Positions 1-63,946 of a stretch of DNA of 64,000 nucleotides are shown here, one piece after another. Origin of the DNA: Enterobacteria phage vB_EcoM_IME339. Where the stretch lies: the sequence record MH051915, one strand, 5' to 3'. A model generated the notes under the pieces. The model was not told the DNA's origin and searched no databases. It worked only from the letters and a program-made list of their open reading frames with translations. Position 1 is the first letter of the stretch; each line of letters opens with the position of its first letter. Made by a program: the position numbers and the translations under genes.

Positions 1-140
1 CCGAAAGGTTGGGGCTTTTTGGTATCTAGGCCTTTCTGGACCTCTCTAGTCATCATTTGGTTTATACCCTTTATAATATATTATCCTATCTTTTAATTGC
101 CCCTCCCTGCCCTAGAATTCCCTAAAACTTTTTAAAAAAT

Positions 141-229
141 TTTTCACAAAACGGTTTACATCTCTGTTCTTCCATGGTACTATACAACTATCAACTACTG
201 ATACAGAAAACAACTTGGAGAATGAAATG
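141..229 (+). promoter_or_regulatory. repeated promoter-leader cassette, copy 1
   Basis: GTTTAC (154-159), 18-nt spacer, TACTAT (178-183); conserved leader 'caactatcaactactgatacag'; GGAG SD; ATG 227. Same module recurs at five other sites. Confidence 0.6.
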
Positions 230-15286: not shown

Positions 15287-15296
15287 ATTTCAAAAT

Positions 15297-15377
15297 TTTT
15301 TCACAAAACGGTTTACAAGCATAAAGCTTTATGGTACTATACAACTATCAACTGATACGGATTTGGAGAATAAAATG
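15297..15377 (+). promoter_or_regulatory. repeated promoter-leader cassette, copy 2
   Basis: 'ttttcacaaaacggtttaca...ggtactatacaactatcaact...ttggagaataaaATG'. Confidence 0.6.
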
Positions 15378-16444: not shown

Positions 16445-16747
16445 ATGTTATACTCAAAGGCTCGTGAAATTTACGAAACTAAAATTAAAGAAGCAGTATT
16501 TCAGTTCGCAACGACAATGCGATGGACAAATGACTGGGAGTATTCAAAAAATCATAAGAAGCCCATGGTGACAAGAAAGGCTCATATGTTAGTGTTAATA
16601 GACCGTGAGCAGATTAAAGCCCGAGAAGCCCTCCAGAATCATAAAAAGGCTGCCTTTGAATGGTTTATGGATAACACTGCTCCTGAGACCAAGAAAGCGG
16701 TAAGTGCATGGTTCAGTGGAAAAAATTGTGAAAGAAGTTTCTTTTAG
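16445..16747 (+). CDS. hypothetical protein (100 aa)
   Basis: ORF track 16433; ATG 16445 behind GGAGG. Confidence 0.45.
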   Translation: MLYSKAREIYETKIKEAVFQFATTMRWTNDWEYSKNHKKPMVTRKAHMLVLIDREQIKAREALQNHKKAAFEWFMDNTAPETKKAVSAWFSGKNCERSFF

Positions 16748-16810
16748 TGGTTTACAAGACTGTTCCTCTGTGGTACTATACAACTATCAACTACGGAGGA
16801 ACACAAAATG
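16748..16810 (+). promoter_or_regulatory. repeated promoter-leader cassette, copy 3 (shortened leader)
   Basis: GTTTACA ... 'tggtactatacaactatcaactacggagga' ... ATG 16808. Confidence 0.55.
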
Positions 16811-24457: not shown

Positions 24458-26271
24458 CAATTGAAAAAGAAATTGAAGGATTGATTCATAAAACTAATAA
24501 AGACCTTTTGAACGAGAATGCTAATAAAGATTCTCGTGTTTTTCCAACTCAACGGGACCTTATGGCTGGTATTGTGTCTAAACACATTGCCAAAAATATG
24601 GTCCCGTCTTTTATTATGAAAGCGCATGAAAGCGGAATTATCCATTTCCATGATATTGATTATTCCCCTGCTCTTCCATTTACTAATTGCTGTTTAGTAG
24701 ATTTAAAAGGAATGCTTGAAAACGGATTTAAGCTCGGTAATGCGCAGATTGAAACTCCTAAATCAATCGGCGTTGCTACTGCAATTATGGCACAAATTAC
24801 TGCACAGGTTGCTTCCCATCAATATGGCGGAACGACTTTTGCGAATGTAGATAAAGTACTTTCTCCTTATGTTAAACGCACCTATGCAAAACATATTGAG
24901 GATGCAGAAAAATGGCAAATCGCTGATGCGTTGAATTATGCCCAATCTAAAACAGAAAAAGACGTATACGATGCATTCCAAGCTTATGAATATGAAGTAA
25001 ATACTCTCTTTAGTTCAAATGGACAAACGCCTTTTGTAACAATTACATTTGGTACGGGAACTGACTGGACTGAACGAATGATTCAGAAAGCAATTCTGAA
25101 AAATCGTATTAAAGGCCTTGGCCGTGATGGAATAACTCCTATTTTCCCTAAGCTTGTTATGTTCGTTGAAGAGGGTGTCAATCTTTATAAAGATGATCCG
25201 AACTATGATATTAAGCAGCTTGCGTTAGAATGTGCAAGCAAAAGAATGTATCCTGATATTATTTCAGCTAAGAACAATAAAGCTATCACCGGTTCATCTA
25301 TTCCTGTTTCTCCAATGGGTTGCCGTAGTTTCTTAAGCGTATGGAAAGATTCGACTGGTAATGAAATTCTTGATGGACGTAATAATCTCGGTGTTGTAAC
25401 ACTGAATCTTCCTCGCATTGCGTTAGATTCTTATATTGGAACACAATTCAATGAACAGAAATTTGCCGAATTGTTCAATGAACGAATGGATTTGTGTTTT
25501 GAAGCTTTGATGTGTAGAATTAGTTCCTTAAAAGGAGTTAAAGCGACCGTTGCTCCTATTCTTTACCAAGAAGGTGCATTCGGGGTTCGTCTTAAACCTG
25601 ATGACGACATAATTGAGTTATTTAAAAACGGTAGAAGTTCAGTGTCCCTAGGATACATTGGTATTCACGAATTGAATATTCTTGTCGGTCGTGATATTGG
25701 ACAGGAAATTTTGACTAAAATGAATGCTCGTCTTAAACGGTGGACTGAAAGAACCGGTTTTGCTTTTAGCTTGTATTCTACTCCTGCTGAAAACCTGTGC
25801 TATCGCTTCTGTAAACTTGATACTGAAAAATATGGAAGTGTAAAAGATGTTACTGATAAAGGCTGGTACACTAATAGTTTCCATGTTTCAGTAGAAGAAA
25901 ATATTACTCCGTTTGAAAAGATTTCTCGCGAAGCCCCATATCATTTCATTGCGACAGGTGGTCACATTTCTTATGTTGAACTTCCTGATATGAAAAATAA
26001 CTTAAAAGGTCTTGAGGCTGTATGGGATTATGCTGCACAACATTTAGATTATTTTGGTGTTAACATGCCAGTAGATAAATGTTTTACATGTGGAAGTACC
26101 CATGAAATGACTCCTACTGAAAACGGATTTGTTTGTTCTATTTGTGGAGAAACTGATCCTAAAAAGATGAATACGATAAGAAGAACTTGTGGTTATTTGG
26201 GAAATCCGAACGAACGCGGATTTAATCTCGGCAAAAATAAAGAAATCATGCATAGGGTTAAACACCAATGA
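24454..26271 (+). CDS. nrdD: anaerobic ribonucleoside-triphosphate reductase NrdD (uninterrupted)
   Basis: 605 aa contiguous ORF; C-terminal glycyl-radical region (...RRTCGYLG) and Cys cluster. Confidence 0.95.
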   Translation: MTIEKEIEGLIHKTNKDLLNENANKDSRVFPTQRDLMAGIVSKHIAKNMVPSFIMKAHESGIIHFHDIDYSPALPFTNCCLVDLKGMLENGFKLGNAQIETPKSIGVATAIMAQITAQVASHQYGGTTFANVDKVLSPYVKRTYAKHIEDAEKWQIADALNYAQSKTEKDVYDAFQAYEYEVNTLFSSNGQTPFVTITFGTGTDWTERMIQKAILKNRIKGLGRDGITPIFPKLVMFVEEGVNLYKDDPNYDIKQLALECASKRMYPDIISAKNNKAITGSSIPVSPMGCRSFLSVWKDSTGNEILDGRNNLGVVTLNLPRIALDSYIGTQFNEQKFAELFNERMDLCFEALMCRISSLKGVKATVAPILYQEGAFGVRLKPDDDIIELFKNGRSSVSLGYIGIHELNILVGRDIGQEILTKMNARLKRWTERTGFAFSLYSTPAENLCYRFCKLDTEKYGSVKDVTDKGWYTNSFHVSVEENITPFEKISREAPYHFIATGGHISYVELPDMKNNLKGLEAVWDYAAQHLDYFGVNMPVDKCFTCGSTHEMTPTENGFVCSICGETDPKKMNTIRRTCGYLGNPNERGFNLGKNKEIMHRVKHQ

Positions 26272-26738
26272 ATTATGATAGATTTTATCCTTGCGATTTT
26301 GTGAATGGCCCTGGATGCAGGGTCGTTCTTTTCGTTACAGGTTGTTTGCATAAATGCGAAGGGTGTTATAATAAATCAACATGGAATGCTAGAAATGGCG
26401 TTCCATTCACTGGTGAAACACTGGAACAATTAATTGAATGTTTGAATAATGATTATATAGAAGGATTAACTATAACTGGAGGAGACCCTCTCTATCCTGA
26501 TAACCGAGATGTTATTCACTCTGTGGTTCAAACAGTAAAAAATCTTTATCCAAATAAAAGCATTTGGTTGTGGACAGGATATAAATTTGAAGATATTAAA
26601 CAACTAGAAATGCTTAAATATGTTGATGTTATTATTGATGGGAAGTATGAGAAAAATCTTCCTACCAAAAAGCTGTGGCGAGGATCAGATAATCAGCGAC
26701 TTTGGTCAAATACCGATGGGGTGTGGAAACATGATTAA
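26268..26738 (+). CDS. nrdG: anaerobic RNR activating enzyme NrdG (radical SAM)
   Basis: 156 aa; Cys-rich motif CLHKCEGCYN; ATGA-coupled to nrdD. Confidence 0.9.
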   Translation: MNYDRFYPCDFVNGPGCRVVLFVTGCLHKCEGCYNKSTWNARNGVPFTGETLEQLIECLNNDYIEGLTITGGDPLYPDNRDVIHSVVQTVKNLYPNKSIWLWTGYKFEDIKQLEMLKYVDVIIDGKYEKNLPTKKLWRGSDNQRLWSNTDGVWKHD

Positions 26739-38705: not shown

Positions 38706-41402
38706 ATGAAAGAATTTTATATCTCTATCGAAACAGTCGGAAATAACATTGTTGAGCGTTATATTGATGAAAATGGAAAGGAACGTACTCGTGAAGTAGA
38801 ATATCTTCCAACTATGTTTAGGCATTGTAAGGAAGAGTCAAAATACAAAGACATTTATGGTAAAAATTGTGCTCCTCAAAAATTTCCATCAATGAAAGAT
38901 GCACGAGATTGGATGAAACGAATGGAAGACATCGGTCTCGAAGCTCTCGGTATGAACGATTTTAAACTCGCTTATATCAGTGATACATATGGTTCAGAAA
39001 TTGTTTATGACCGAAAATTTGTTCGTGTAGCTAACTGTGACATTGAGGTTACTGGTGATAAATTTCCTGACCCAATGAAAGCAGAATATGAAATTGATGC
39101 TATCACTCATTATGATTCAATTGACGACCGTTTTTACGTCTTTGACTTGTTGAATTCAATGTACGGTTCAGTATCAAAATGGGATGCAAAGTTAGCTGCT
39201 AAGCTTGACTGTGAAGGTGGTGATGAAGTTCCTCAAGAAATTCTTGACCGAGTAATTTATATGCCATTCGATAATGAGCGTGATATGCTTATGGAATATA
39301 TTAATCTCTGGGAACAGAAACGACCGGCTATTTTTACCGGTTGGAATATTGAGGGATTTGACGTTCCGTATATCATGAATCGCGTTAAAATGGTTCTGGG
39401 TGAACGTAGTATGAAACGCTTCTCTCCAATCGGTCGAGTAAAATCTAAACTAATTCAAAATATGTACGGTAGCAAAGAAATTTATTCTATTGATGGCGTA
39501 TCTATTCTTGATTATTTAGATTTGTACAAGAAATTCGCATTTACTAATTTGCCATCGTTCTCTTTGGAATCAGTTGCTCAACATGAAACCAAAAAAGGTA
39601 AATTGCCGTACGATGGTCCTATTAATAAACTTCGTGAGACTAATCATCAACGATACATTAGTTATAACATTATTGACGTAGAATCAGTTCAAGCAATTGA
39701 TAAAATTCGTGGGTTTATCGATCTAGTTTTAAGTATGTCTTATTACGCTAAAATGCCTTTTTCTGGTGTAATGAGCCCTATTAAAACTTGGGATGCTATT
39801 ATTTTTAACTCACTGAAAGGTGAACATAAGGTTATTCCTCAACAAGGTTCGCACGTTAAACAGAGTTTTCCAGGTGCATTTGTGTTTGAACCTAAACCGA
39901 TTGCTCGTCGATACATTATGAGTTTTGACTTGACGTCTCTGTATCCTAGCATTATTCGTCAGGTTAACATTAGTCCTGAAACTATTCGTGGACAGTTTAA
40001 AGTTCATCCAATTCATGAATATATCGCAGGAACAGCTCCTAAGCCAAGTGATGAATATTCTTGCTCTCCGAATGGATGGATGTATGATAAGCACCAAGAA
40101 GGTATCATTCCAAAGGAAATCGCTAAAGTATTTTTCCAGCGTAAAGATTGGAAAAAGAAAATGTTCGCGGAAGAAATGAATGCCGAAGCTATTAAAAAGA
40201 TTATTATGAAAGGTGCAGGGTCTTGCTCAACTAAACCAGAAGTTGAACGATATGTTAAGTTCAATGATGATTTCTTAAACGAATTATCGAATTACACCGA
40301 ATCTGTTCTTAATAGTCTGATTGAAGAATGTGAAAAAGCTGCTACACTTGCTAACACAAATCAGCTGAACCGTAAAATTCTTATTAACAGTCTTTATGGT
40401 GCTCTTGGTAATATTCATTTCCGCTACTATGATTTGCGAAATGCTACTGCTATCACAATTTTCGGTCAAGTTGGTATTCAGTGGATTGCTCGCAAAATTA
40501 ATGAATATCTAAATAAAGTGTGTGGAACTAATGGTGAAGATTTCATCGCAGCAGGTGATACTGATTCGGTATATGTTTGTGTAGATAAAGTTATTGAAAA
40601 AGTAGGTCTTGATCGCTTTAAAGAACAAAATGATTTAGTTGAATTTATGAATCAGTTTGGTAAGAAAAAGATGGAACCTATGATTGATGTTGCATATCGT
40701 GAGTTATGTGATTATATGAATAACCGCGAGCATCTGATGCATATGGACCGTGAAGCTATTTCTTGCCCTCCGCTTGGTTCAAAGGGTGTCGGTGGATTTT
40801 GGAAAGCGAAAAAACGTTATGCTCTGAACGTTTATGACATGGAAGATAAGCGATTTGCCGAACCGCATCTAAAAATTATGGGTATGGAAACTCAACAGAG
40901 TTCAACACCAAAAGCAGTACAAGAAGCTCTCGAAGAAAGTATTCGTCGTATTCTTCAGGAAGGTGAAGAGTCTGTCCAAGAATATTACAAGAACTTTGAG
41001 AAAGAATATCGTCAACTTGATTATAAAGTTATTGCTGAAGTAAAAACTGCGAACGATATAGCGAAATATGATGATAAAGGTTGGCCAGGATTTAAATGCC
41101 CGTTCCACATTCGTGGGGTGCTAACTTATCGTCGAGCTGTTAGTGGTTTAGGTGTAGCTCCAATTTTGGATGGAAATAAGGTAATGGTTCTTCCATTACG
41201 TGAGGGAAATCCATTTGGTGACAAGTGTATTGCTTGGCCGTCGGGTACGGAACTTCCAAAAGAAATTCGTTCTGATGTACTGTCTTGGATTGACTACTCA
41301 ACTTTGTTCCAAAAATCGTTTGTTAAACCGCTTGCGGGTATGTGTGAATCGGCAGGTATGGACTATGAGGAAAAAGCTTCGTTAGACTTCCTGTTTGGCT
41401 GA
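38706..41402 (+). CDS. 43: DNA polymerase gp43 (family B)
   Basis: 898 aa; exonuclease and polymerase motifs (YGDTDS); T4 gp43 length. Confidence 0.97.
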   Translation: MKEFYISIETVGNNIVERYIDENGKERTREVEYLPTMFRHCKEESKYKDIYGKNCAPQKFPSMKDARDWMKRMEDIGLEALGMNDFKLAYISDTYGSEIVYDRKFVRVANCDIEVTGDKFPDPMKAEYEIDAITHYDSIDDRFYVFDLLNSMYGSVSKWDAKLAAKLDCEGGDEVPQEILDRVIYMPFDNERDMLMEYINLWEQKRPAIFTGWNIEGFDVPYIMNRVKMVLGERSMKRFSPIGRVKSKLIQNMYGSKEIYSIDGVSILDYLDLYKKFAFTNLPSFSLESVAQHETKKGKLPYDGPINKLRETNHQRYISYNIIDVESVQAIDKIRGFIDLVLSMSYYAKMPFSGVMSPIKTWDAIIFNSLKGEHKVIPQQGSHVKQSFPGAFVFEPKPIARRYIMSFDLTSLYPSIIRQVNISPETIRGQFKVHPIHEYIAGTAPKPSDEYSCSPNGWMYDKHQEGIIPKEIAKVFFQRKDWKKKMFAEEMNAEAIKKIIMKGAGSCSTKPEVERYVKFNDDFLNELSNYTESVLNSLIEECEKAATLANTNQLNRKILINSLYGALGNIHFRYYDLRNATAITIFGQVGIQWIARKINEYLNKVCGTNGEDFIAAGDTDSVYVCVDKVIEKVGLDRFKEQNDLVEFMNQFGKKKMEPMIDVAYRELCDYMNNREHLMHMDREAISCPPLGSKGVGGFWKAKKRYALNVYDMEDKRFAEPHLKIMGMETQQSSTPKAVQEALEESIRRILQEGEESVQEYYKNFEKEYRQLDYKVIAEVKTANDIAKYDDKGWPGFKCPFHIRGVLTYRRAVSGLGVAPILDGNKVMVLPLREGNPFGDKCIAWPSGTELPKEIRSDVLSWIDYSTLFQKSFVKPLAGMCESAGMDYEEKASLDFLFG

Positions 41403-41415
41403 TAGAATAAATCTA

Positions 41416-41436
41416 GGGACCTCCGGGTCCCTTTTT
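41416..41436 (+). terminator. intrinsic terminator (gggaccTCCGggtccc + T5)
   Basis: Perfect hairpin and T-run after gene 43. Confidence 0.7.
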
Positions 41437-41478
41437 CATACAAGTAATATAAATCTATACTTAGGAAAAATAGATGAT

Positions 41479-41590
41479 TCTGGACCTCTGGAATTCATTA
41501 AAAATTTTTTTCACAAAATGGTTTACATCCCGGTTCCTTTGTGGTACTATACAACTATCAACTACTGATACAGATTTGGAGAATGAAATG
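41479..41590 (+). promoter_or_regulatory. repeated promoter-leader cassette, copy 4
   Basis: Shares 'tctggacctct..gaattc..ttttcacaaaa(c/t)ggtttaca...ggtactatacaactatcaactactgatacag..ttggagaatgaaATG' with copy 1. Confidence 0.6.
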
Positions 41591-41968
41591 AAAATCGCTA
41601 TTTTGGTTATTGCATTGGGTCTTACTGGTTGTGTAGCTCAAGGACCAGTAGTAAATCAGTCTGATGCAGGAAAAATTGTAAACTGTTCAAGCAAATTTTA
41701 TAATCCTAACGTCAAGTGTTATAAAGAAGCTCCAAAACAGACAGTAGAACAAATGCAGGCGAATTTTGACGAAGCTATTCGTTCAGATGAATCTGCCCAA
41801 GCATATCGTAATTCAGATGTAATTACACGCGAAGAAAAAATTGAAAATTACTGCGCCGTTCTTTGGGCAAATTGGGCTAATAATTACCAATGGCGTACAG
41901 GTAAAAACGCTCCGATGGAGTATGTAGTGAATTCTTATAATTCATGTGTAAAAAATTTGACTAAGTGA
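41588..41968 (+). CDS. lipoprotein (126 aa) next to imm
   Basis: Signal peptide plus lipobox LTGC; ATG 41588 behind cassette SD. Confidence 0.6.
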   Translation: MKIAILVIALGLTGCVAQGPVVNQSDAGKIVNCSSKFYNPNVKCYKEAPKQTVEQMQANFDEAIRSDESAQAYRNSDVITREEKIENYCAVLWANWANNYQWRTGKNAPMEYVVNSYNSCVKNLTK

Positions 41969-41975
41969 GGAAAAC

Positions 41976-42227
41976 ATGGAAACTTTAGTAGCAGGTTCAA
42001 TTTTTATGGTTTTAGTTTCAGGCGTGTTGGCTATTATTATATACATGCTTCCGTGGTTCATCGCCTTGATGCGTGGGTCAAAATCGACAGTAGGAATCTT
42101 TTTCACATCTTTACTGTTTAACTGGTCAATCATTGGTTGGTTTATTACATTTATTTGGTCAATTGCGGGTGAAACTAAAAAATCTGTACAGCAAAATCAA
42201 GTAATTATCATCAGAGAGAAGGAATGA
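41976..42227 (+). CDS. imm: superinfection immunity membrane protein Imm
   Basis: 83 aa, two hydrophobic helices; T4 Imm size and position between 43 and 42. Confidence 0.8.
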   Translation: METLVAGSIFMVLVSGVLAIIIYMLPWFIALMRGSKSTVGIFFTSLLFNWSIIGWFITFIWSIAGETKKSVQQNQVIIIREKE

Positions 42228-42373
42228 AAAGCAAAATTTTAGCAGTATTGCTTTTAATCTTGATGATTATAATAAGTATATACTATAGCGTAACGGTTCC
42301 TTGCATGATTCCGACACTTATTATAGGTTGGGGTTTATTACTGTTACAAGTTAAATATGAATGTATCAATTGA
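42224..42373 (+). CDS. possible small membrane peptide (49 aa)
   Basis: Hand-translated MKSKILAVLLLILMIIISIYY...; ATGA-coupled to imm. Confidence 0.3.
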   Translation: MKSKILAVLLLILMIIISIYYSVTVPCMIPTLIIGWGLLLLQVKYECIN

Positions 42374-42380
42374 GGTTTAA

Positions 42381-43121
42381 ATGATTAATGACTCTATGAC
42401 AGTTGAAGAAATCCGTCTTCATTTGGGAATTGCATTAAAGGAAAAAGATTTCGTAGTTGATAAAACTGGTGTTAAAACTATTGAAATTATTGGTGCATCA
42501 TTTGTAGCAGATGAACCTTTTATTTTTGGCGCTCTTAATGATGAATACATTCAGCGTGAACTTGAATGGTATAAGTCTCAAAGTTTGTTTGTTAAAGATA
42601 TTCCAGGTGAAACACCAAAGATTTGGCAGCAGGTAGCATCTTCTAAAGGCGAAATTAACTCGAATTATGGTTGGGCTATCTGGTCAGAAGATAACTATGC
42701 TCAGTATGATATGTGTTTAGCTGAACTTGGTCAAAATCCTGATTCTCGGCGTGGTATCATGATTTATACTCGTCCATCCATGCAGTTTGACTACAACAAA
42801 GATGGTATGTCAGATTTCATGTGTACGAATACAGTACAGTACCTGATTCGTGATAAGAAAGTCAATGCAGTAGTAAGCATGCGTTCAAATGACGTGGTCT
42901 TCGGATTCCGTAATGATTATGCATGGCAAAAATACGTACTAGATAAATTAGTATCTGATTTGAATGCAGGTGATTCAACTCGCCAGTATAAAGCAGGTTC
43001 CATTATATGGAATGTCGGGAGCCTTCATGTGTATTCTCGTCATTTTTATTTGGTTGACCATTGGTGGAAAACCGGCGAAACTCATATTGCGAAAAAAGAT
43101 TATAATGGTGAGTGGAAATGA
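42381..43121 (+). CDS. 42: dCMP hydroxymethylase gp42
   Basis: 246 aa; thymidylate-synthase-like fold; T4 gp42 length. Confidence 0.95.
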   Translation: MINDSMTVEEIRLHLGIALKEKDFVVDKTGVKTIEIIGASFVADEPFIFGALNDEYIQRELEWYKSQSLFVKDIPGETPKIWQQVASSKGEINSNYGWAIWSEDNYAQYDMCLAELGQNPDSRRGIMIYTRPSMQFDYNKDGMSDFMCTNTVQYLIRDKKVNAVVSMRSNDVVFGFRNDYAWQKYVLDKLVSDLNAGDSTRQYKAGSIIWNVGSLHVYSRHFYLVDHWWKTGETHIAKKDYNGEWK

Positions 43122-43960
43122 TTCAATTTGTAATTCCAAGCTATCAACGCGTAGGGGCAGTTTCTGCCCTTGATATGTTTCCGACTGATTATGAACCTCA
43201 TATTGTAGTACGTGAACATGAAGAAAAAGCTTATTATGACGCTTACGGGTCTAGAGCTAAAATTATAACTATTCCTGATGATGTTAATGGAATTGCTGGA
43301 ACTCGTAAAGCAATTACTGATATGTATGCAGGTCAACGAATTTGGATGATTGATGATGATACTACTATTCGTATGAGTTCAATGCGAAAGAAAGATGATC
43401 GTCGCTGCGTAGATAAAATTAATCAATTAACTCGTGAACAGTTCTATGAATTGATTCAATACGTGGAAGATGCCATGGATTGCGGGTATTATCACGGTCA
43501 TGCTCGTCTACCTATTTTTAAAATTACTTCATCTTGGGGTAATTATCGTGAAAATTCATATGGATTCACGAATACATGGTATGACCTCGGAAAACTTACT
43601 ACAGAACAAATTGGGTATGGAAAAATTGATTTATGCGAAGATATGTATGCATTTCTCAATTTAATTAACCAAGGTTATCCGCATTTGGCTTTGTTCAAAT
43701 ATCTGGTTGTGTCTGGAAAAGCGCAGGCTCCTGGCGGATGTAGTTCAATTCGTAGTAATTCAAAACATAATAGAGCTCTTGAGCAAATCAATAGAGAGTT
43801 TCCAGAGCAAGCTCGTTGGAAAACTTCTAATATTGAAAAACGAAAATCATTAGGTGAAGAAGACGAGCCATTAAAGGTTCTTCGTATGTGTGTTTCGCGC
43901 AAAGAAAAATCAGAAGCGTTTCATAAGTTTAATGCTATTCATCCAATAGCAGTCGATTAA
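43118..43960 (+). CDS. putative glycosyltransferase (DxD motif) at the beta-gt position
   Basis: 280 aa, ...RIWMIDDDTT...; unlike recalled T4 beta-gt; may correspond to T2/T6-type beta-alpha-gt. Confidence 0.55.
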   Translation: MIQFVIPSYQRVGAVSALDMFPTDYEPHIVVREHEEKAYYDAYGSRAKIITIPDDVNGIAGTRKAITDMYAGQRIWMIDDDTTIRMSSMRKKDDRRCVDKINQLTREQFYELIQYVEDAMDCGYYHGHARLPIFKITSSWGNYRENSYGFTNTWYDLGKLTTEQIGYGKIDLCEDMYAFLNLINQGYPHLALFKYLVVSGKAQAPGGCSSIRSNSKHNRALEQINREFPEQARWKTSNIEKRKSLGEEDEPLKVLRMCVSRKEKSEAFHKFNAIHPIAVD

Positions 43961-48140: not shown

Positions 48141-48434
48141 ATGAAAAAATTTATCTTTGCTGCAATTTTTGCTTTATCTTCTTGCGCTGCTCAGCCTGCT
48201 ATGGCGGGTTATGACAAAGATTTGTGTGAATGGTCTATGACTGCAGATCAGACTGAAGTTGAAACTCAAATTGAAGCAGATATTATGAATATCGTTGAGC
48301 GTGATCGTCCTGAAATGAAAGCTGAAGTGCAAAAACAGCTTAAGTCTGGTGGTGTAATGCAGTATAATTATGTTCTATATTGCGATAAAAACTTTAATAA
48401 TAAAAATATCATCGCTGAAGTGGTAGGTGAGTAA
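48141..48434 (+). CDS. sp: periplasmic Spackle-like protein
   Basis: 97 aa; signal peptide MKKFIFAAIFALSSCAAQPAMA; T4 Sp (61.3) size and position. Confidence 0.65.
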   Translation: MKKFIFAAIFALSSCAAQPAMAGYDKDLCEWSMTADQTEVETQIEADIMNIVERDRPEMKAEVQKQLKSGGVMQYNYVLYCDKNFNNKNIIAEVVGE

Positions 48435-60225: not shown

Positions 60226-60236
60226 AATTTAAAATT

Positions 60237-60326
60237 TTTTCATAAAACTATATACATCAGTAGTTGATTATGGTACTATATCAATATCAACTACTGATAC
60301 AGAAAAACAACTTGGAGAATAAAATG
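60237..60326 (+). promoter_or_regulatory. repeated promoter-leader cassette, copy 5
   Basis: '...atcagtagttgattatggtactatatcaatatcaactactgatacag...cttggagaataaaATG'; -35 region replaced by inverted repeat of the leader. Confidence 0.55.
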
Positions 60327-61422: not shown

Positions 61423-61794
61423 ATGTTTAAAATTGGTAAGAAATATCGTGTTCGCGAAGGTGAAGAAAAGAAATATCTACTTTCTTCTATTTATAGGAAT
61501 GGTTCTATTAATGCCGTAATATCTACAAGTGAATTTATCGTTGAAGATATGAAAGGTAATAATGTTACAATGATTAGTACAGCATCTGGAAATGATGGAA
61601 AAATTCTTCACAGTTTTCAGAGTAATGTTCTAATTTATGATGAAGAATTTGACTTCTTCGAAGAAGTTACAGAAGATTTTGATTTTGAATGCACTATCAC
61701 TATGAAATCTGGCGACCCTATTTCTTTTACAGTTAAAGATGAAAGAAGTCGCTTGAGAATTATTAGTCTCCTTCAAGCCATTAAATTTGAGTGA
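61423..61794 (+). CDS. hypothetical protein (123 aa)
   Basis: ORF track. Confidence 0.5.
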   Translation: MFKIGKKYRVREGEEKKYLLSSIYRNGSINAVISTSEFIVEDMKGNNVTMISTASGNDGKILHSFQSNVLIYDEEFDFFEEVTEDFDFECTITMKSGDPISFTVKDERSRLRIISLLQAIKFE

Positions 61795-61798
61795 AATT

Positions 61799-62059
61799 AT
61801 GAAATATGTTAATCGTTCTATCGCGGCATTAGTATTAGCAGTATCTTTAGTAGGATGTACTGATGCTGACAATGCAACCAAAGTTTTGTCTTCAAGTGGT
61901 TTTACTAATATTGAAATCACTGGATATAATTGGTTTGGTTGCTCTGAAAATGATTTCCAACATACTGGATTTCGTGCTATTGGACCTACCGGGCAGAAAG
62001 TAGAAGGAACAGTATGTTCTGGTCTTTTCTTCAAGGATTCGACTATCCGTTTTAAATAA
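61799..62059 (+). CDS. lipoprotein (86 aa)
   Basis: Signal peptide plus lipobox LVGC; followed by terminator. Confidence 0.55.
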   Translation: MKYVNRSIAALVLAVSLVGCTDADNATKVLSSSGFTNIEITGYNWFGCSENDFQHTGFRAIGPTGQKVEGTVCSGLFFKDSTIRFK

Positions 62060-62078: not shown

Positions 62079-62128
62079 CTTTATGATTACCGGAGTATAA
62101 TATTCCCGAAACCAAACGAGGATAAGTG

Positions 62129-63946
62129 ATGATTAAGAATGAAATTAAAATTCTGAGCGATATTGAACATATCAAAAAGCGTAGCGGCATGTATATTGGC
62201 TCTTCTGCTAATGAAATGCATGAGCGCTTTCTGTTTGGTAAATGGGAAAGTGTTCAGTATGTACCTGGTCTTGTTAAGCTTATTGATGAAATTATCGATA
62301 ACTCAGTAGATGAAGGTATTCGTACTAAGTTTAAATTCGCAAATAAAATTAATGTTACTATCAAAAACAATCAAGTAACAGTTGAAGATAACGGTCGTGG
62401 TATTCCACAAGCGATGGTTAAAACACCTACCGGTGAAGAAATTCCTGGTCCAGTTGCTGCATGGACTATTCCAAAAGCAGGTGGTAACTTTGGTGATGAT
62501 AAAGAACGCGTCACCGGCGGTATGAACGGCGTTGGTTCTAGTTTAACTAACATTTTTTCTGTGATGTTTGTCGGTGAAACTGGCGACGGTCAAAATAATA
62601 TTGTAGTTCGTTGTTCAAACGGCATGGAAAATAAATCATGGGAAGATATTCCTGGAAAATGGAAAGGAACTCGCGTTACTTTCATTCCCGATTTTATGTC
62701 ATTTGAAACTAATGAGCTATCTCAGGTTTATCTTGACATTACACTGGATCGTCTCCAGACACTTGCAGTAGTTTATCCTGATATTCAATTTACCTTTAAT
62801 GGTAAAAAGGTTCAGGGTAATTTTAAGAAATATGCACGTCAATATGATGAACATGCTATCGTTCAAGAACAAGAAAACTGTTCTATTGCGGTTGGTCGTT
62901 CACCGGATGGTTTTCGTCAATTAACATACGTCAATAACATTCATACTAAGAATGGCGGCCATCACATTGACTGCGTTATGGATGATATTTGTGAAGACCT
63001 TATTCCGCAAATCAAACGTAAATTCAAAATTGATGTAACTAAAGCACGTGTTAAAGAATGTTTGACTATCGTTATGTTTGTTCGTGATATGAAAAACATG
63101 CGATTTGATTCTCAAACTAAAGAGCGTTTGACTTCTCCTTTTGGTGAAATTCGTAGTCATATTCAGCTTGATGCTAAAAAGATTTCACGCGCTATTTTAA
63201 ATAATGAAGCAATTTTAATGCCAATCATTGAAGCTGCCTTGGCTCGTAAATTGGCGGCAGAAAAAGCAGCAGAAACTAAAGCAGCTAAAAAGGCTTCTAA
63301 AGCTAAGGTTCATAAACATATTAAAGCGAATCTTTGTGGTAAAGATGCTGACACTACTCTTTTCTTGACTGAGGGTGATTCTGCTATCGGATATCTTATT
63401 GATGTTCGTGATAAAGAACTTCATGGTGGTTATCCATTACGTGGTAAAGTTCTCAACAGTTGGGGTATGTCATATGCTGATATGCTTAAAAATAAAGAAC
63501 TGTTTGATATTTGCGCAATCACTGGATTAGTTCTTGGTGAAAAGGCTGAAAACTTAAATTATCATAATATTGCCATTATGACTGACGCTGACCATGATGG
63601 TCTAGGAAGCATTTATCCTTCTCTGCTCGGATTTTTTAGTAATTGGCCAGAACTGTTTGAACAAGGAAGAATTCGCTTTGTCAAAACTCCTGTAATCATC
63701 GCTCAGGTCGGTAAAAAACAAGAATGGTTTTATACAGTCGCTGAATATGAGAGTGCCAAAGATGCTCTACCTAAACATAGCATCCGTTATATTAAAGGAC
63801 TTGGCTCTTTGGAAAAATCTGAATATCGTGAGATGATTCAAAATCCAGTATATGATGTTGTTAAACTTCCTGAGAACTGGAAAGAGCTTTTTGAAATGCT
63901 CATGGGAGATAATGCTGACCTTCGTAAAGAATGGATGAGCCAATAG
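62129..63946 (+). CDS. 39: DNA topoisomerase II large subunit, uninterrupted
   Basis: 605 aa; GyrB-like ATPase motifs; extends through the region T4 splits into gene 60. Confidence 0.95.
   Translation: MIKNEIKILSDIEHIKKRSGMYIGSSANEMHERFLFGKWESVQYVPGLVKLIDEIIDNSVDEGIRTKFKFANKINVTIKNNQVTVEDNGRGIPQAMVKTPTGEEIPGPVAAWTIPKAGGNFGDDKERVTGGMNGVGSSLTNIFSVMFVGETGDGQNNIVVRCSNGMENKSWEDIPGKWKGTRVTFIPDFMSFETNELSQVYLDITLDRLQTLAVVYPDIQFTFNGKKVQGNFKKYARQYDEHAIVQEQENCSIAVGRSPDGFRQLTYVNNIHTKNGGHHIDCVMDDICEDLIPQIKRKFKIDVTKARVKECLTIVMFVRDMKNMRFDSQTKERLTSPFGEIRSHIQLDAKKISRAILNNEAILMPIIEAALARKLAAEKAAETKAAKKASKAKVHKHIKANLCGKDADTTLFLTEGDSAIGYLIDVRDKELHGGYPLRGKVLNSWGMSYADMLKNKELFDICAITGLVLGEKAENLNYHNIAIMTDADHDGLGSIYPSLLGFFSNWPELFEQGRIRFVKTPVIIAQVGKKQEWFYTVAEYESAKDALPKHSIRYIKGLGSLEKSEYREMIQNPVYDVVKLPENWKELFEMLMGDNADLRKEWMSQ

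What the first reader, a model, noticed from the sequence alone, without database searches (positions are those of the whole stretch)
41479..41968. Cassette-delivered lipoprotein immediately upstream of imm: candidate superinfection-exclusion or envelope factor
The ORF at 41588 encodes a 126-aa protein with a signal peptide and lipobox (LTGC) and four further Cys. It sits between gene 43 and imm, directly behind cassette copy 4. Phage lipoproteins in this kind of context (T5 Llp, Cor-like) block receptors or injection; placement beside imm suggests a related role. A second lipoprotein lies at 61799-62059 just upstream of gene 39.
Basis: inference. Interest (0 to 1): 0.6.

Follow-up and report, generated by a model that had tools for sequence, protein, structure and literature searches.

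The report
T4 imm.1 lipoprotein beside imm
The ORF is the ortholog of phage T4's catalogued but uncharacterised early gene imm.1, a predicted outer-membrane lipoprotein kept next to the superinfection-immunity gene imm in every T4-like genus examined, which makes it a credible but untested envelope-level exclusion factor.

Summary
Window 41588-41968 encodes a 126-aa protein with a lipoprotein signal peptide (lipobox LTGC, Cys15) and four more Cys. It lies between gene 43 and imm, behind the fourth copy of a repeated early-promoter cassette.

It is not new as a gene. It is 97% identical to T4 Imm.1 (NP_049661) and matches Pfam DUF5481. No function has been assigned to it. In T4 it is made early as RNA and protein, and knock-down has no effect on growth in the laboratory.

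Comparison adds one thing. In all 26 T4-like imm loci sampled from IMG/VR, a lipoprotein of this kind sits beside imm. It is directly upstream in most genera and two genes downstream in Gaprivervirus and Dhakavirus. The imm.1-imm pair occurs in three different genomic settings, and one DUF5481 member links the divergent forms at the profile level.

The protein is nearly invariant in T2 and T4, which use different receptors, and shows no similarity to Llp or Spackle. A receptor-blocking role is therefore unlikely.

Best guess (about 0.4): a periplasm-facing accessory of the Imm/Sp exclusion system. Function is untested. Interest is moderate.

The parts
41415..41440 (+). Intrinsic terminator after gene 43 (stem AGGGACC-tccg-GGTCCCT plus T-run). 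It is the stem-loop part of the PeSL-type cassette.
   Evidence: 7-bp stem, 5 GC pairs, T-run; conserved in T4
41498..41574 (+). Copy 4 of a 77-nt repeated early-promoter/leader cassette. -35 TTTACA at 41522-41527, 17-nt spacer, -10 TACTAT at 41545-41550 with a TG extension, then the shared leader ACAACTATCAACTACTGATACAGA.
   Evidence: family D1, 5 copies, 87% identity to the reference copy; matches the published T4/PST PeSL promoter consensus TTTACW-N17-TAYWAT (PMC4122927)
41578..41581 (+). Shine-Dalgarno GGAG, 6 nt before the imm.1 start codon
   Evidence: read directly from the sequence
41588..41968 (+). imm.1 ortholog: 126-aa lipoprotein precursor. Signal peptide aa 1-14, lipobox L12-T13-G14-C15 (41621-41632), mature protein aa 15-126.
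   Evidence: 97% identity to T4 NP_049661; PF17578/DUF5481 E 4.5e-69; phrog_1754; dN/dS about 0.05
41684..41722 (+). C33-SSKFYNPNVK-C44-Y45: the most conserved motif of DUF5481 (N32, Y38, N39, P40, K43 and Y45 are invariant, N32 lying one codon before this span). It is bracketed by a Cys pair in the T4 type only, and it is not folded in either AF2 model.
   Evidence: invariant columns; pLDDT below 50 for residues 1-39, about 45-54 up to residue 50
41828..41962 (+). C-terminal helical hairpin (helices 81-104 and 110-125) carrying the superfamily-wide conserved Cys pair C89/C120, a presumed disulfide.
   Evidence: AF2 pLDDT 88-93 in this part; C89 and C120 invariant in all alignments
41976..42227 (+). 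imm (83 aa), starting 8 nt after the imm.1 stop. Its GAGG ribosome site overlaps the imm.1 stop codon.
   Evidence: PF14373 E 7.8e-16, phrog_1039; sequence
42224..42373 (+). 49-aa hydrophobic ORF (42.1-like) overlapping the imm stop (ATGA). Third gene of the early imm.1-imm-42.1-42 transcription unit.
   Evidence: phrog_3610 E 1.2e-25; also follows imm in L005 and VR26

Best explanation
The ORF is the ortholog of bacteriophage T4 early gene imm.1. That part is certain. It is transcribed from a PeSL-type early promoter together with imm, 42.1 and gene 42, and it is exported through Sec. It is most likely lipidated at Cys15. Residue +2 is Val rather than Asp, so Lol should sort it to the inner leaflet of the outer membrane. 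An unstructured N-terminal segment of about 35 residues carries the conserved motifs. The C-terminal region forms a small helical domain, probably disulfide-locked, in the periplasm. It is the founding member of a fast-diverging lipoprotein superfamily that T4-like phages keep beside imm. My inference, at about 0.4, is that it is an accessory part of the envelope-level superinfection-exclusion and secondary-adsorption protection system. On this view it works from the outer-membrane side. Sp works at the peptidoglycan layer, where it inhibits the gp5 lysozyme. Imm works at the inner membrane, where it binds the tape-measure protein gp29. Imm.1 would engage a lineage-specific phage component, either the incoming injection apparatus or Imm itself, and not the cell-surface receptor. 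Shown: identity, anatomy, conservation, synteny, and early expression and dispensability in T4. Inferred: lipidation, outer-membrane location, the disulfide, and the entire functional role.
For: Identity: 121/125 residues identical to T4 Imm.1 and a DUF5481 match at 229.8 bits against a cut-off of 27.

Expression: T4 imm.1 is classed 'early-RNA_early-Protein' in time-resolved omics (PMC9697503 supplement). The promoter matches the T4 PeSL consensus.

Linkage to imm: the DUF5481 gene is immediately upstream of imm in four diverged lineages and three different neighbourhoods. These are 43-imm.1-imm-42 (window; L006), frd.3-like-imm.1-imm (L005) and dmd-imm.1-imm-sp in Mosigvirus. In 26 of 26 T4-like imm loci from IMG/VR, a 122-167-aa lipoprotein of the same build lies within two genes of imm. 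It is upstream in Tequatro-, Mosig-, Gelderland-, Moon-, Jiaoda- and Winklervirus types, and downstream (imm-42.1-lipoprotein) in Gaprivervirus and Dhakavirus. Among 44 imm loci that are not T4-like, only three have a plausible adjacent lipoprotein.

The target is not the receptor: the protein is 96.8-98.4% identical across about 500 Tequatroviruses, including T2 and T4. From established knowledge, these adsorb to different outer-membrane proteins.

A lineage-specific partner: dN/dS is about 0.05 within the genus. Identity is only 32% to the Mosigvirus form, while Imm is 62% identical, even though both genera infect E. coli.

Sorting: residue +2 is V, A, G, S or Q in all family members and never Asp.

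A role that shows only under competition fits the CRISPRi-ART result: knock-down of T4 imm.1 scores -0.77, p 0.98, 'Not Fit' (PMC11879866 supplement).
Against: No experiment links imm.1 to exclusion. The only paper in the searchable library that mentions it merely assumes a link (PMC5885020). Imm expressed alone from a plasmid excludes T4 and binds gp29 without Imm.1 (bioRxiv 10.64898/2026.03.06.709160). To my knowledge, classical genetics recovered only imm and sp as exclusion loci. There is no sequence or fold similarity to any exclusion protein. The structure model is confident only for a generic helical hairpin. Conserved adjacency in related phages may partly reflect shared descent and operon economy and not joint function. 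One family member (P0004) has an SPase-I-type signal and no lipobox, so the lipid anchor is not universally needed.
Confidence: 0.4

Rival explanations
1. Host-directed envelope factor unrelated to exclusion. The lipoprotein binds or mimics a host outer-membrane or periplasmic component (for example Lpp/Pal-type tethering, Bam/Lpt/Lol machinery, or envelope-stress sensors). It would keep the infected envelope intact or silent until lysis, or stop progeny adsorbing to debris.
For: Predicted outer-membrane lipoprotein made early. The segment right after the lipid anchor is the most widely conserved part of the superfamily, which would suit docking onto something at the inner face of the outer membrane. 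Dispensable in rich-medium laboratory growth. Many members end in Lys, as Lpp does, although T4 itself does not.
Against: Phages of four genera that all infect E. coli carry versions only about 20-35% identical. That is unexpected if all of them bind the same conserved host protein. This model does not explain why the gene stays beside imm through three relocations. No similarity to Lpp, Pal, RcsF or any host lipoprotein family was found.
Confidence: 0.22
2. No functional link with imm. The adjacency is inherited gene order in a small early operon, and Imm.1 has some other, unknown periplasmic role.
For: All carriers belong to one phage subfamily, so the loci are not independent. Imm works without Imm.1 on a plasmid. 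Imm homologs outside T4-like phages mostly lack such a neighbour.
Against: The pair moved together to at least two other genomic positions, next to sp in Mosigvirus and next to a frd.3-like gene in L005. In Gaprivervirus and Dhakavirus the order is permuted but the proximity is kept. In Mosigvirus imm.1, imm and sp each have their own early promoter, so operon economy does not force the adjacency.
Confidence: 0.18
3. Counter-exclusion or anti-defence factor. The lipoprotein neutralises an envelope-level barrier set up by prophages, plasmids or competing phages, or it protects the phage's own later steps.
For: Fast divergence between genera with tight conservation within a genus is common for conflict genes. 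It is an early, non-essential gene.
Against: No match to any PADLOC or known anti-defence family. An early protein made after injection cannot help the infecting phage past an entry barrier. Linkage to imm is not explained.
Confidence: 0.1
4. Llp/Cor-type receptor masking. The lipoprotein binds the periplasmic face of the phage's outer-membrane receptor and makes it unusable.
For: Same general class as Llp: a small phage-encoded outer-membrane lipoprotein with an intramolecular disulfide that acts from the periplasmic side (PMC9586334).
Against: Essentially the same protein is present in T2 and T4 (97.6% and 96.8% identity to the window copy), which use different receptors (established knowledge). 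It is not adjacent to a receptor-binding-protein gene, whereas llp sits next to pb5. There is no sequence similarity to any PDB chain, and the FhuA-Llp crystal structure has been solved. There is no fold match. The mature protein is 112 aa and helical, against 61 aa for Llp.
Confidence: 0.05

Closest known systems
Bacteriophage T4 Imm.1 (gene imm.1, T4p046, NP_049661.1, UniProt P18057; Pfam PF17578 DUF5481; phrog_1754)
   Same: Ortholog: 97% identity, same length class, same position between 43 and imm, same promoter, leader and terminator.
   Different: Four substitutions, plus a one-base difference at the 3' end that adds a C-terminal Lys, as in most Tequatroviruses. Function is unknown in T4 as well.
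Unnamed lipoproteins beside imm in other Tevenvirinae (Salmonella phage Melville CPT_Melville_037 'putative conserved lipoprotein', Klebsiella phage JD18_024, Citrobacter phage Merlin/Moon, Enterobacter phage CC31/PG7, Serratia phage PS2, VR26_045, JS98 orf43)
   Same: Lipobox, +2 never Asp, post-anchor G-x-IV-V..S.VG motif, helical C-terminal part with two conserved Cys, and a position beside imm. Profile-level link through P0005.
   Different: Pairwise similarity to the window protein itself is marginal (E 0.008-0.05 at best). They are 20-40 aa longer. In Gaprivervirus and Dhakavirus the gene lies downstream of imm. None matches the Pfam DUF5481 model.
T5 Llp and the Cor lipoproteins (T1, phi80, N15)
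   Same: Phage-encoded small outer-membrane lipoproteins with a disulfide that act in the periplasm. This is the precedent for lipoprotein-mediated exclusion.
   Different: No homology. Llp/Cor genes sit by the receptor-binding-protein gene and are receptor-specific (FhuA). Imm.1 sits by imm and is invariant across phages with different receptors.
T4 Spackle (Sp, gp61.3; PF25676)
   Same: Early, exported, small all-helical periplasmic protein with one disulfide. An exclusion factor, and clustered with imm.1-imm in Mosigvirus.
   Different: No sequence or fold match. The literature treats Sp as soluble after signal-peptide cleavage. Its target, the gp5 lysozyme, is known.
T4 Imm (PF14373)
   Same: Adjacent gene, co-transcribed and translationally close. 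Known exclusion factor that binds the tape-measure protein gp29.
   Different: Imm is an 83-aa polytopic inner-membrane protein. Imm.1 is unrelated in sequence and is predicted to be anchored in the other membrane.
o-spanins (lambda Rz1, T4 PseT.3)
   Same: Small phage outer-membrane lipoproteins with periplasmic Cys residues.
   Different: Spanins are late genes paired with or embedded in an i-spanin gene and are Pro-rich. Imm.1 is early, helical and paired with imm.

Membership tests
T4 Imm.1 / Pfam DUF5481 (PF17578) | Match to the family HMM above the gathering score | tested here: met
   229.8 bits against a cut-off of 27, E 4.5e-69, covering profile positions 1-103 of 103
T4 Imm.1 / Pfam DUF5481 (PF17578) | Orthology to T4 imm.1: near-identity and the same locus (43 - imm.1 - imm - 42) | tested here: met
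   121/125 identical; 97% DNA identity across 1 kb including the intergenic regions; T4 annotation
Bacterial-type lipoprotein (SPase II substrate) | Signal peptide with a positive n-region, a hydrophobic core and the lipobox [LVI][ASTVI][GAS]C | tested here: met
   MK-IAILVIALG-LTGC. The PROSITE-style pattern matched. The lipobox is conserved in all family members but one. The Pfam LPAM_1 match is weak (E 0.42).
Bacterial-type lipoprotein (SPase II substrate) | Actual diacylglyceryl modification and SPase II cleavage (globomycin sensitivity, palmitate labelling) | not testable with these tools
   Needs an experiment.
Outer-membrane-sorted lipoprotein (Lol pathway, E. coli rule) | No Asp at position +2 after the lipidated Cys | tested here: met
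   +2 is Val here and V/A/G/S/Q in relatives. The rule itself comes from established knowledge, and localisation has not been measured.
Llp/Cor superinfection-exclusion lipoproteins | Sequence or structural similarity to Llp/Cor | tested here: not met
Llp/Cor superinfection-exclusion lipoproteins | Gene adjacent to the receptor-binding-protein gene, and protein specific for that phage's receptor | tested here: not met
   The gene lies between DNA polymerase and imm. It is 97-98% identical in T2 and T4 despite their different receptors. The llp context is taken from PMC9586334.
Llp/Cor superinfection-exclusion lipoproteins | Expression blocks adsorption or infection by the cognate phage | not testable with these tools
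   Needs plating and adsorption assays.
T4 Spackle (PF25676) | Match to the Spackle HMM or fold | tested here: not met
   No PF25676 hit for Imm.1, whereas the window's own Sp (48141-48434) hits it at E 2.8e-45. No fold hit.
PeSL (promoter-early stem-loop) cassette of T4-type phages | Stem-loop or terminator followed by an early promoter fitting TTTACW-N17-TAYWAT, repeated at many sites in the genome | tested here: met
   Terminator 41415-41440 and TTTACA-N17-TACTAT at 41522-41550. Five copies of the 77-nt unit in the window. Consensus from PMC4122927.
PeSL (promoter-early stem-loop) cassette of T4-type phages | The cassette marks a site of gene gain, loss or shuffling between close relatives | tested here: inconclusive
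   Within Tequatrovirus the locus is fixed (495 of 516 matching records cover at least 80% of the 1-kb query). Between genera the imm.1-imm pair has moved, and in Mosigvirus each gene carries its own early promoter. 'Cassette-delivered' is plausible historically but is not shown.
Imm-linked lipoprotein superfamily (proposed here) | Common descent of DUF5481 and the 145-167-aa lipoproteins beside imm in other genera | tested here: inconclusive

The most novel reading that the evidence does not exclude
Imm.1 is a third, so far unrecognised component of T-even superinfection exclusion. It would be an outer-membrane-anchored periplasmic protein that co-evolves with each phage lineage's own injection apparatus (or with Imm). 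It would intercept the incoming tail tip or tape-measure conduit from the outer-membrane side. Together with Sp (peptidoglycan layer) and Imm (inner membrane), this would give a three-layer trans-envelope barrier conserved across the Tevenvirinae.
Probability: 0.3. Interest if true: 0.65.

Novelty: already known. Interest (0 to 1): 0.4.

Why it matters
T4 superinfection exclusion is a textbook phenomenon. It is currently explained by two genes. Sp was explained structurally in 2020, and Imm was shown to bind the tape-measure protein only in a 2026 preprint. A lipoprotein that every sampled T4-like genus keeps beside imm, through relocation and reordering, is an obvious and cheap candidate for a missing outer-membrane-side player. 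Alternatively it could be a new kind of envelope manipulation by a model phage.

There is also a practical annotation point. Public records label this gene 'iduronate sulfatase' (RefSeq T4 and others) or 'immunity protein'. Neither label has evidence behind it. The relatives in Salmonella, Klebsiella, Citrobacter, Enterobacter and Serratia phages are unlabelled and could now be annotated as Imm.1-like lipoproteins.

If the gene has no exclusion role, the finding is simply a correctly spotted, already catalogued T4 ORF.

Tried and rejected

2. Sequence search for distant relatives. The word-indexed search gave 3 clusters. The exhaustive search of 1.84 billion representatives gave 6 hits. One of these (P0006, 1434 aa) is a spurious match to a repeated 'NYQWSTGE' motif. 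No bacterial homologs were found.

3. NCBIfam and PADLOC gave only noise (YidC E 0.0016 far below its cut-off; RT_UG34 E 0.008).

4. The RefSeq name 'iduronate sulfatase' is rejected. There is no sulfatase domain, and the protein is 126 aa.

5. The 'immunity protein' labels on imm.1 in many GenBank records look like a name carried over from the neighbouring gene. No paper supports them.

6. The longer 164-aa reading frame from ATG 41474 is rejected, because it runs through the promoter and leader. T4 and all relatives start at the ATG behind the GGAG.

7. o-spanin is rejected, because this is an early gene with no i-spanin partner.

8. An Imm.1-linker-Imm fusion alignment was submitted to test for a predicted complex.

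9. The original Lu & Henning papers and the 2003 T4 genome review are not held, so nothing is cited from them.

10. A first hhalign test of DUF5481 against the JD18 type alone was not significant. The link became significant only after more lineages were added.

Full report
1. WHAT IS IN THE SEQUENCE

The window is from a T4-like phage (Tequatrovirus). The region reads:
- gene 43 DNA polymerase (38706-41402)
- an intrinsic terminator (41415-41440)
- a promoter-like site, TTTACA-17 nt-TACTAT (41522-41550)
- GGAG (41578-41581)
- a 126-aa ORF (41588-41968)
- imm (41976-42227, 83 aa, PF14373)
- a 49-aa hydrophobic ORF overlapping the imm stop (42224-42373)
- gene 42 (42381-43121)
- a T2/T6-type beta-glucosyl-HMC-alpha-glucosyltransferase (43112-43960)

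The 126-aa product begins MKIAILVIALGLTGC. That is a short lipoprotein signal peptide with the lipobox LTGC. Further Cys lie at 33, 44, 89 and 120.

The 'cassette' is a real repeat. A 77-nt unit containing the early promoter and a shared leader occurs five times in the window, at 131, 15288, 16727, 41498 and 60227, each in front of an ORF. The promoter fits the published PeSL consensus for T4-group phages, TTTACW-N17-TAYWAT (PMC4122927).

2. WHAT IT IS

The ORF is the ortholog of T4 imm.1. It shares 121 of 125 residues with NP_049661.1. The DNA, including the terminator, promoter and leader, aligns with T4 at 97%. The protein matches Pfam DUF5481 at 229.8 bits and phrog_1754, 'unknown function'.

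About 500 phage genomes carry it at 95-99% protein identity, and about 155 Mosigvirus (RB69-group) genomes carry it at 31-33%.

It is a real, constrained gene. dN/dS among nine Tequatrovirus copies is 0.00-0.20.

Experimental data exist for the T4 copy:
- Time-resolved omics class it as early at both RNA and protein level (PMC9697503 supplement).
- A genome-wide dCas13d knock-down screen scores it 'Not Fit' (-0.77, p 0.98). This means it is dispensable in standard culture. The same supplement lists its prior essentiality status as 'UNKNOWN' (PMC11879866 supplement).

No paper in the searchable library assigns it a function. The single mention assumes a role in exclusion without data, and wrongly lists the gene as absent from the RB69 group (PMC5885020).

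The database names 'iduronate sulfatase' and 'immunity protein' have no support.

3. THE FAMILY AND ITS NEIGHBOURS

This is the part that adds something. The family is tiny and confined to phages. An exhaustive HMMER scan of 1.84 billion representative proteins found only four real lineages. In every one of them the gene sits immediately upstream of imm, yet in three different neighbourhoods:
- 43-imm.1-imm-42 (this window, and L006)
- a frd.3-like gene-imm.1-imm-49-aa ORF (L005)
- dmd-imm.1-imm-sp in Mosigvirus, in the 41-61 region, where each of the three genes has its own early promoter

I then fetched 70 imm loci from IMG/VR. All 26 that are T4-like carry a 122-167-aa lipoprotein within two genes of imm:
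- It is directly upstream in the Tequatro-, Mosig-, Gelderland- (S16/Melville), Moon- (Merlin), Jiaoda- (JD18) and Winklervirus (Serratia PS2) types. Karamvirus (CC31/PG7) has homologs at the matching genome position.
- In Gaprivervirus (VR26) and Dhakavirus (JS98) I first scored it as absent. It is in fact downstream, in the order imm-42.1-lipoprotein.

Of the 44 imm loci that are not T4-like, only three have a plausible adjacent lipoprotein.

These proteins share one build:
- a lipobox
- never Asp at +2
- a conserved segment right after the anchor (T4 QGPVVNQSDAGKIV; JD18 QGDIVPASSVGQVR; VR26 QGDVVNASEIGKAR)
- a second Gly/Tyr motif
- a helical C-terminal part with two aligned Cys

The statistical support is as follows. 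An HMM of the non-DUF5481 mature sequences scores the DUF5481 member P0005 at 25.2 bits (E 7.8e-10 for a single comparison). Profile-profile global alignment gives P 1.6e-5. For the window protein itself the link is only marginal, with E 0.008.

I therefore regard a single superfamily as probable, joined through an intermediate member, but not proven.

4. STRUCTURE

Two AlphaFold2 runs agree. Residues 16-50, which hold the invariant N32/Y38-N39-P40/K43/Y45 motif, are not folded in isolation. Helices at 53-65 and 68-75 are predicted with moderate confidence. A hairpin of helices 81-104 and 110-125 is predicted with pLDDT about 90 and carries C89 and C120.

5. HOW IT MOST LIKELY WORKS

Shown:
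- It is expressed early.
- It carries an export signal with a lipobox.
- It is conserved.
- It is linked to imm.
- It is dispensable in the laboratory.

Inferred from the E. coli sorting rule: it is anchored in the inner leaflet of the outer membrane and faces the periplasm.

Three observations narrow the target.
- First, the protein is essentially the same in T2 and T4, which adsorb to different outer-membrane proteins (established knowledge). It is therefore not a receptor mask of the Llp/Cor type.
- Second, four genera that all infect E. coli carry versions that have drifted to 20-35% identity. Within a genus the protein is almost frozen. This fits a partner that differs between phage lineages better than a shared host protein.
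- Third, the gene travels with imm. Imm's product blocks the incoming phage's tape-measure protein at the inner membrane (bioRxiv 10.64898/2026.03.06.709160). In Mosigvirus the gene also sits with sp, whose product blocks the gp5 lysozyme (PMC7677548).

The most economical reading is an accessory exclusion or secondary-adsorption protection factor working from the outer-membrane side. It would act on the incoming injection apparatus or in complex with Imm. I put this at about 0.4.

The evidence against is real:
- Imm alone excludes T4 from a plasmid.
- No phenotype is known for imm.1.
- One relative (P0004) lacks the lipid anchor.
- Adjacency among related phages is not independent evidence.

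Rivals:
- a host-envelope-directed factor (0.22)
- no functional link to imm (0.18)
- counter-exclusion or anti-defence (0.10)
- Llp-like receptor masking (0.05)

6. COMPARISON WITH WHAT IS KNOWN, AND NOVELTY

As a gene this is already known. It is T4 imm.1 / DUF5481, annotated for decades, and the copy in this window is an ordinary ortholog.

It is not a member of the Llp/Cor, Spackle, Imm or spanin families. The defining features were tested and not met.

What I could not find stated anywhere in the searchable literature:
- the family-wide lipoprotein-imm pairing
- the extension of the family to the unlabelled lipoproteins of Salmonella, Klebsiella, Citrobacter, Enterobacter and Serratia T4-like phages
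- the permuted arrangement in Gaprivervirus and Dhakavirus

That pairing turns a nameless ORF into a specific hypothesis that is easy to test.

7. VERDICT

- Observation: confirmed.
- Interpretation: partly supported. A link to the envelope and to imm is plausible and now better founded. The Llp/Cor mechanism is unlikely, and this is not a new gene.
- Interest: 0.4.
- Most novel reading not excluded: a third, outer-membrane-side component of T-even superinfection exclusion (probability about 0.3).

Noticed in passing
window 42224-42373 (+): A 49-aa strongly hydrophobic ORF overlaps the imm stop codon (ATGA) and matches phrog_3610 (E 1.2e-25). It is called 42.1 in some records but is not annotated in the T4 RefSeq entry, where 26220-26372 is empty. 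It also follows imm in L005 and in VR26, so the conserved unit may be three genes (lipoprotein, Imm, small TM peptide).
   Followed up: partly
window 61799-62059 (+); T4 locus L089 2399-2596: The second lipoprotein (86 aa, lipobox LVGC, +2 Thr) is the ortholog of T4 39.1 and is widespread (1070 phage records). In the T4 reference, 39.1 is annotated as only 65 aa starting MLINATKV, so it lacks the signal peptide and lipobox. Another T4 record (KJ477684) matches the full 86 aa. No Pfam family matches it.
   Followed up: partly
window 61423-61794 (+): A 123-aa ORF lies between the 39.2 and 39.1 orthologs. It has no counterpart in the T4 reference at that position. In T4 only about 100 nt separate 39.2 from 39.1.
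   Followed up: no
window 48141-48434 (+); L024 1536-1829: Spackle (PF25676, E 2.8e-45) also matches the lipobox pattern (ALSSC, Cys15). The Cys is kept in the Mosigvirus Sp (AVSC). The literature treats Sp as a soluble 75-aa periplasmic protein cleaved after residue 22. Whether some Sp is lipidated appears not to have been asked.
   Followed up: no
window 62126-63946 (+) and 43112-43960 (+): Gene 39 is a single 606-aa ORF, not split into 39 + 60 as in T4. The glucosyltransferase after gene 42 is the T2/T6-type beta-glucosyl-HMC-alpha-glucosyltransferase (phrog_842). T4's beta-gt and segA do not follow gene 42 here. The window phage is therefore T2/T6-like in these respects. The best database match for the imm region is only 96.7% identical.
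   Followed up: no
window 131-207, 15288-15364, 16727-16803, 60227-60303 (+): The other four copies of the 77-nt early-promoter/leader cassette each precede an ORF, with starts at 227 (87 aa), 15375 (322 aa), 16808 (175 aa) and 60324 (89 aa). The shared part extends past the -10 box through a common leader (ACAACTATCAACTACTGATACAGA...GGAGAAT[GA]AAATG), so the cassette supplies the 5' UTR and ribosome site as well as the promoter.
   Followed up: partly
T4 RefSeq NC_000866 26636-27013 and many GenBank records: imm.1 is labelled 'iduronate sulfatase' in RefSeq T4 and derived records, and 'immunity protein' in many others. Neither label has any sequence or experimental support.
   Followed up: yes
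L005 718-1086 (Logan SRR30535852 contig): One DUF5481 member (P0004, 122 aa, 42% identical) has an SPase-I-type signal (..LAGFSAHA|SD) in place of a lipobox. It would be a soluble periplasmic version, and it is still immediately upstream of imm.
   Followed up: partly
L070 3147-3380, L071 2728-2955, L072 3335-3688: Three imm-homolog loci that are not T4-like (contigs of 23-45 kb) also have a small lipoprotein (75-117 aa, lipobox LSGC or LAGC) next to the imm homolog. These are unrelated in sequence to Imm.1.
   Followed up: no
L003 2380-3260 (Mosigvirus ATK48): In the RB69 group, imm.1, imm and sp form one cluster between dmd and gene 61. Each is preceded by its own GTTTACA...TA(C/T)(T/A)(A/G)T early promoter, so the three envelope genes look like separately mobile cassette units that have been brought together.
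   Followed up: partly
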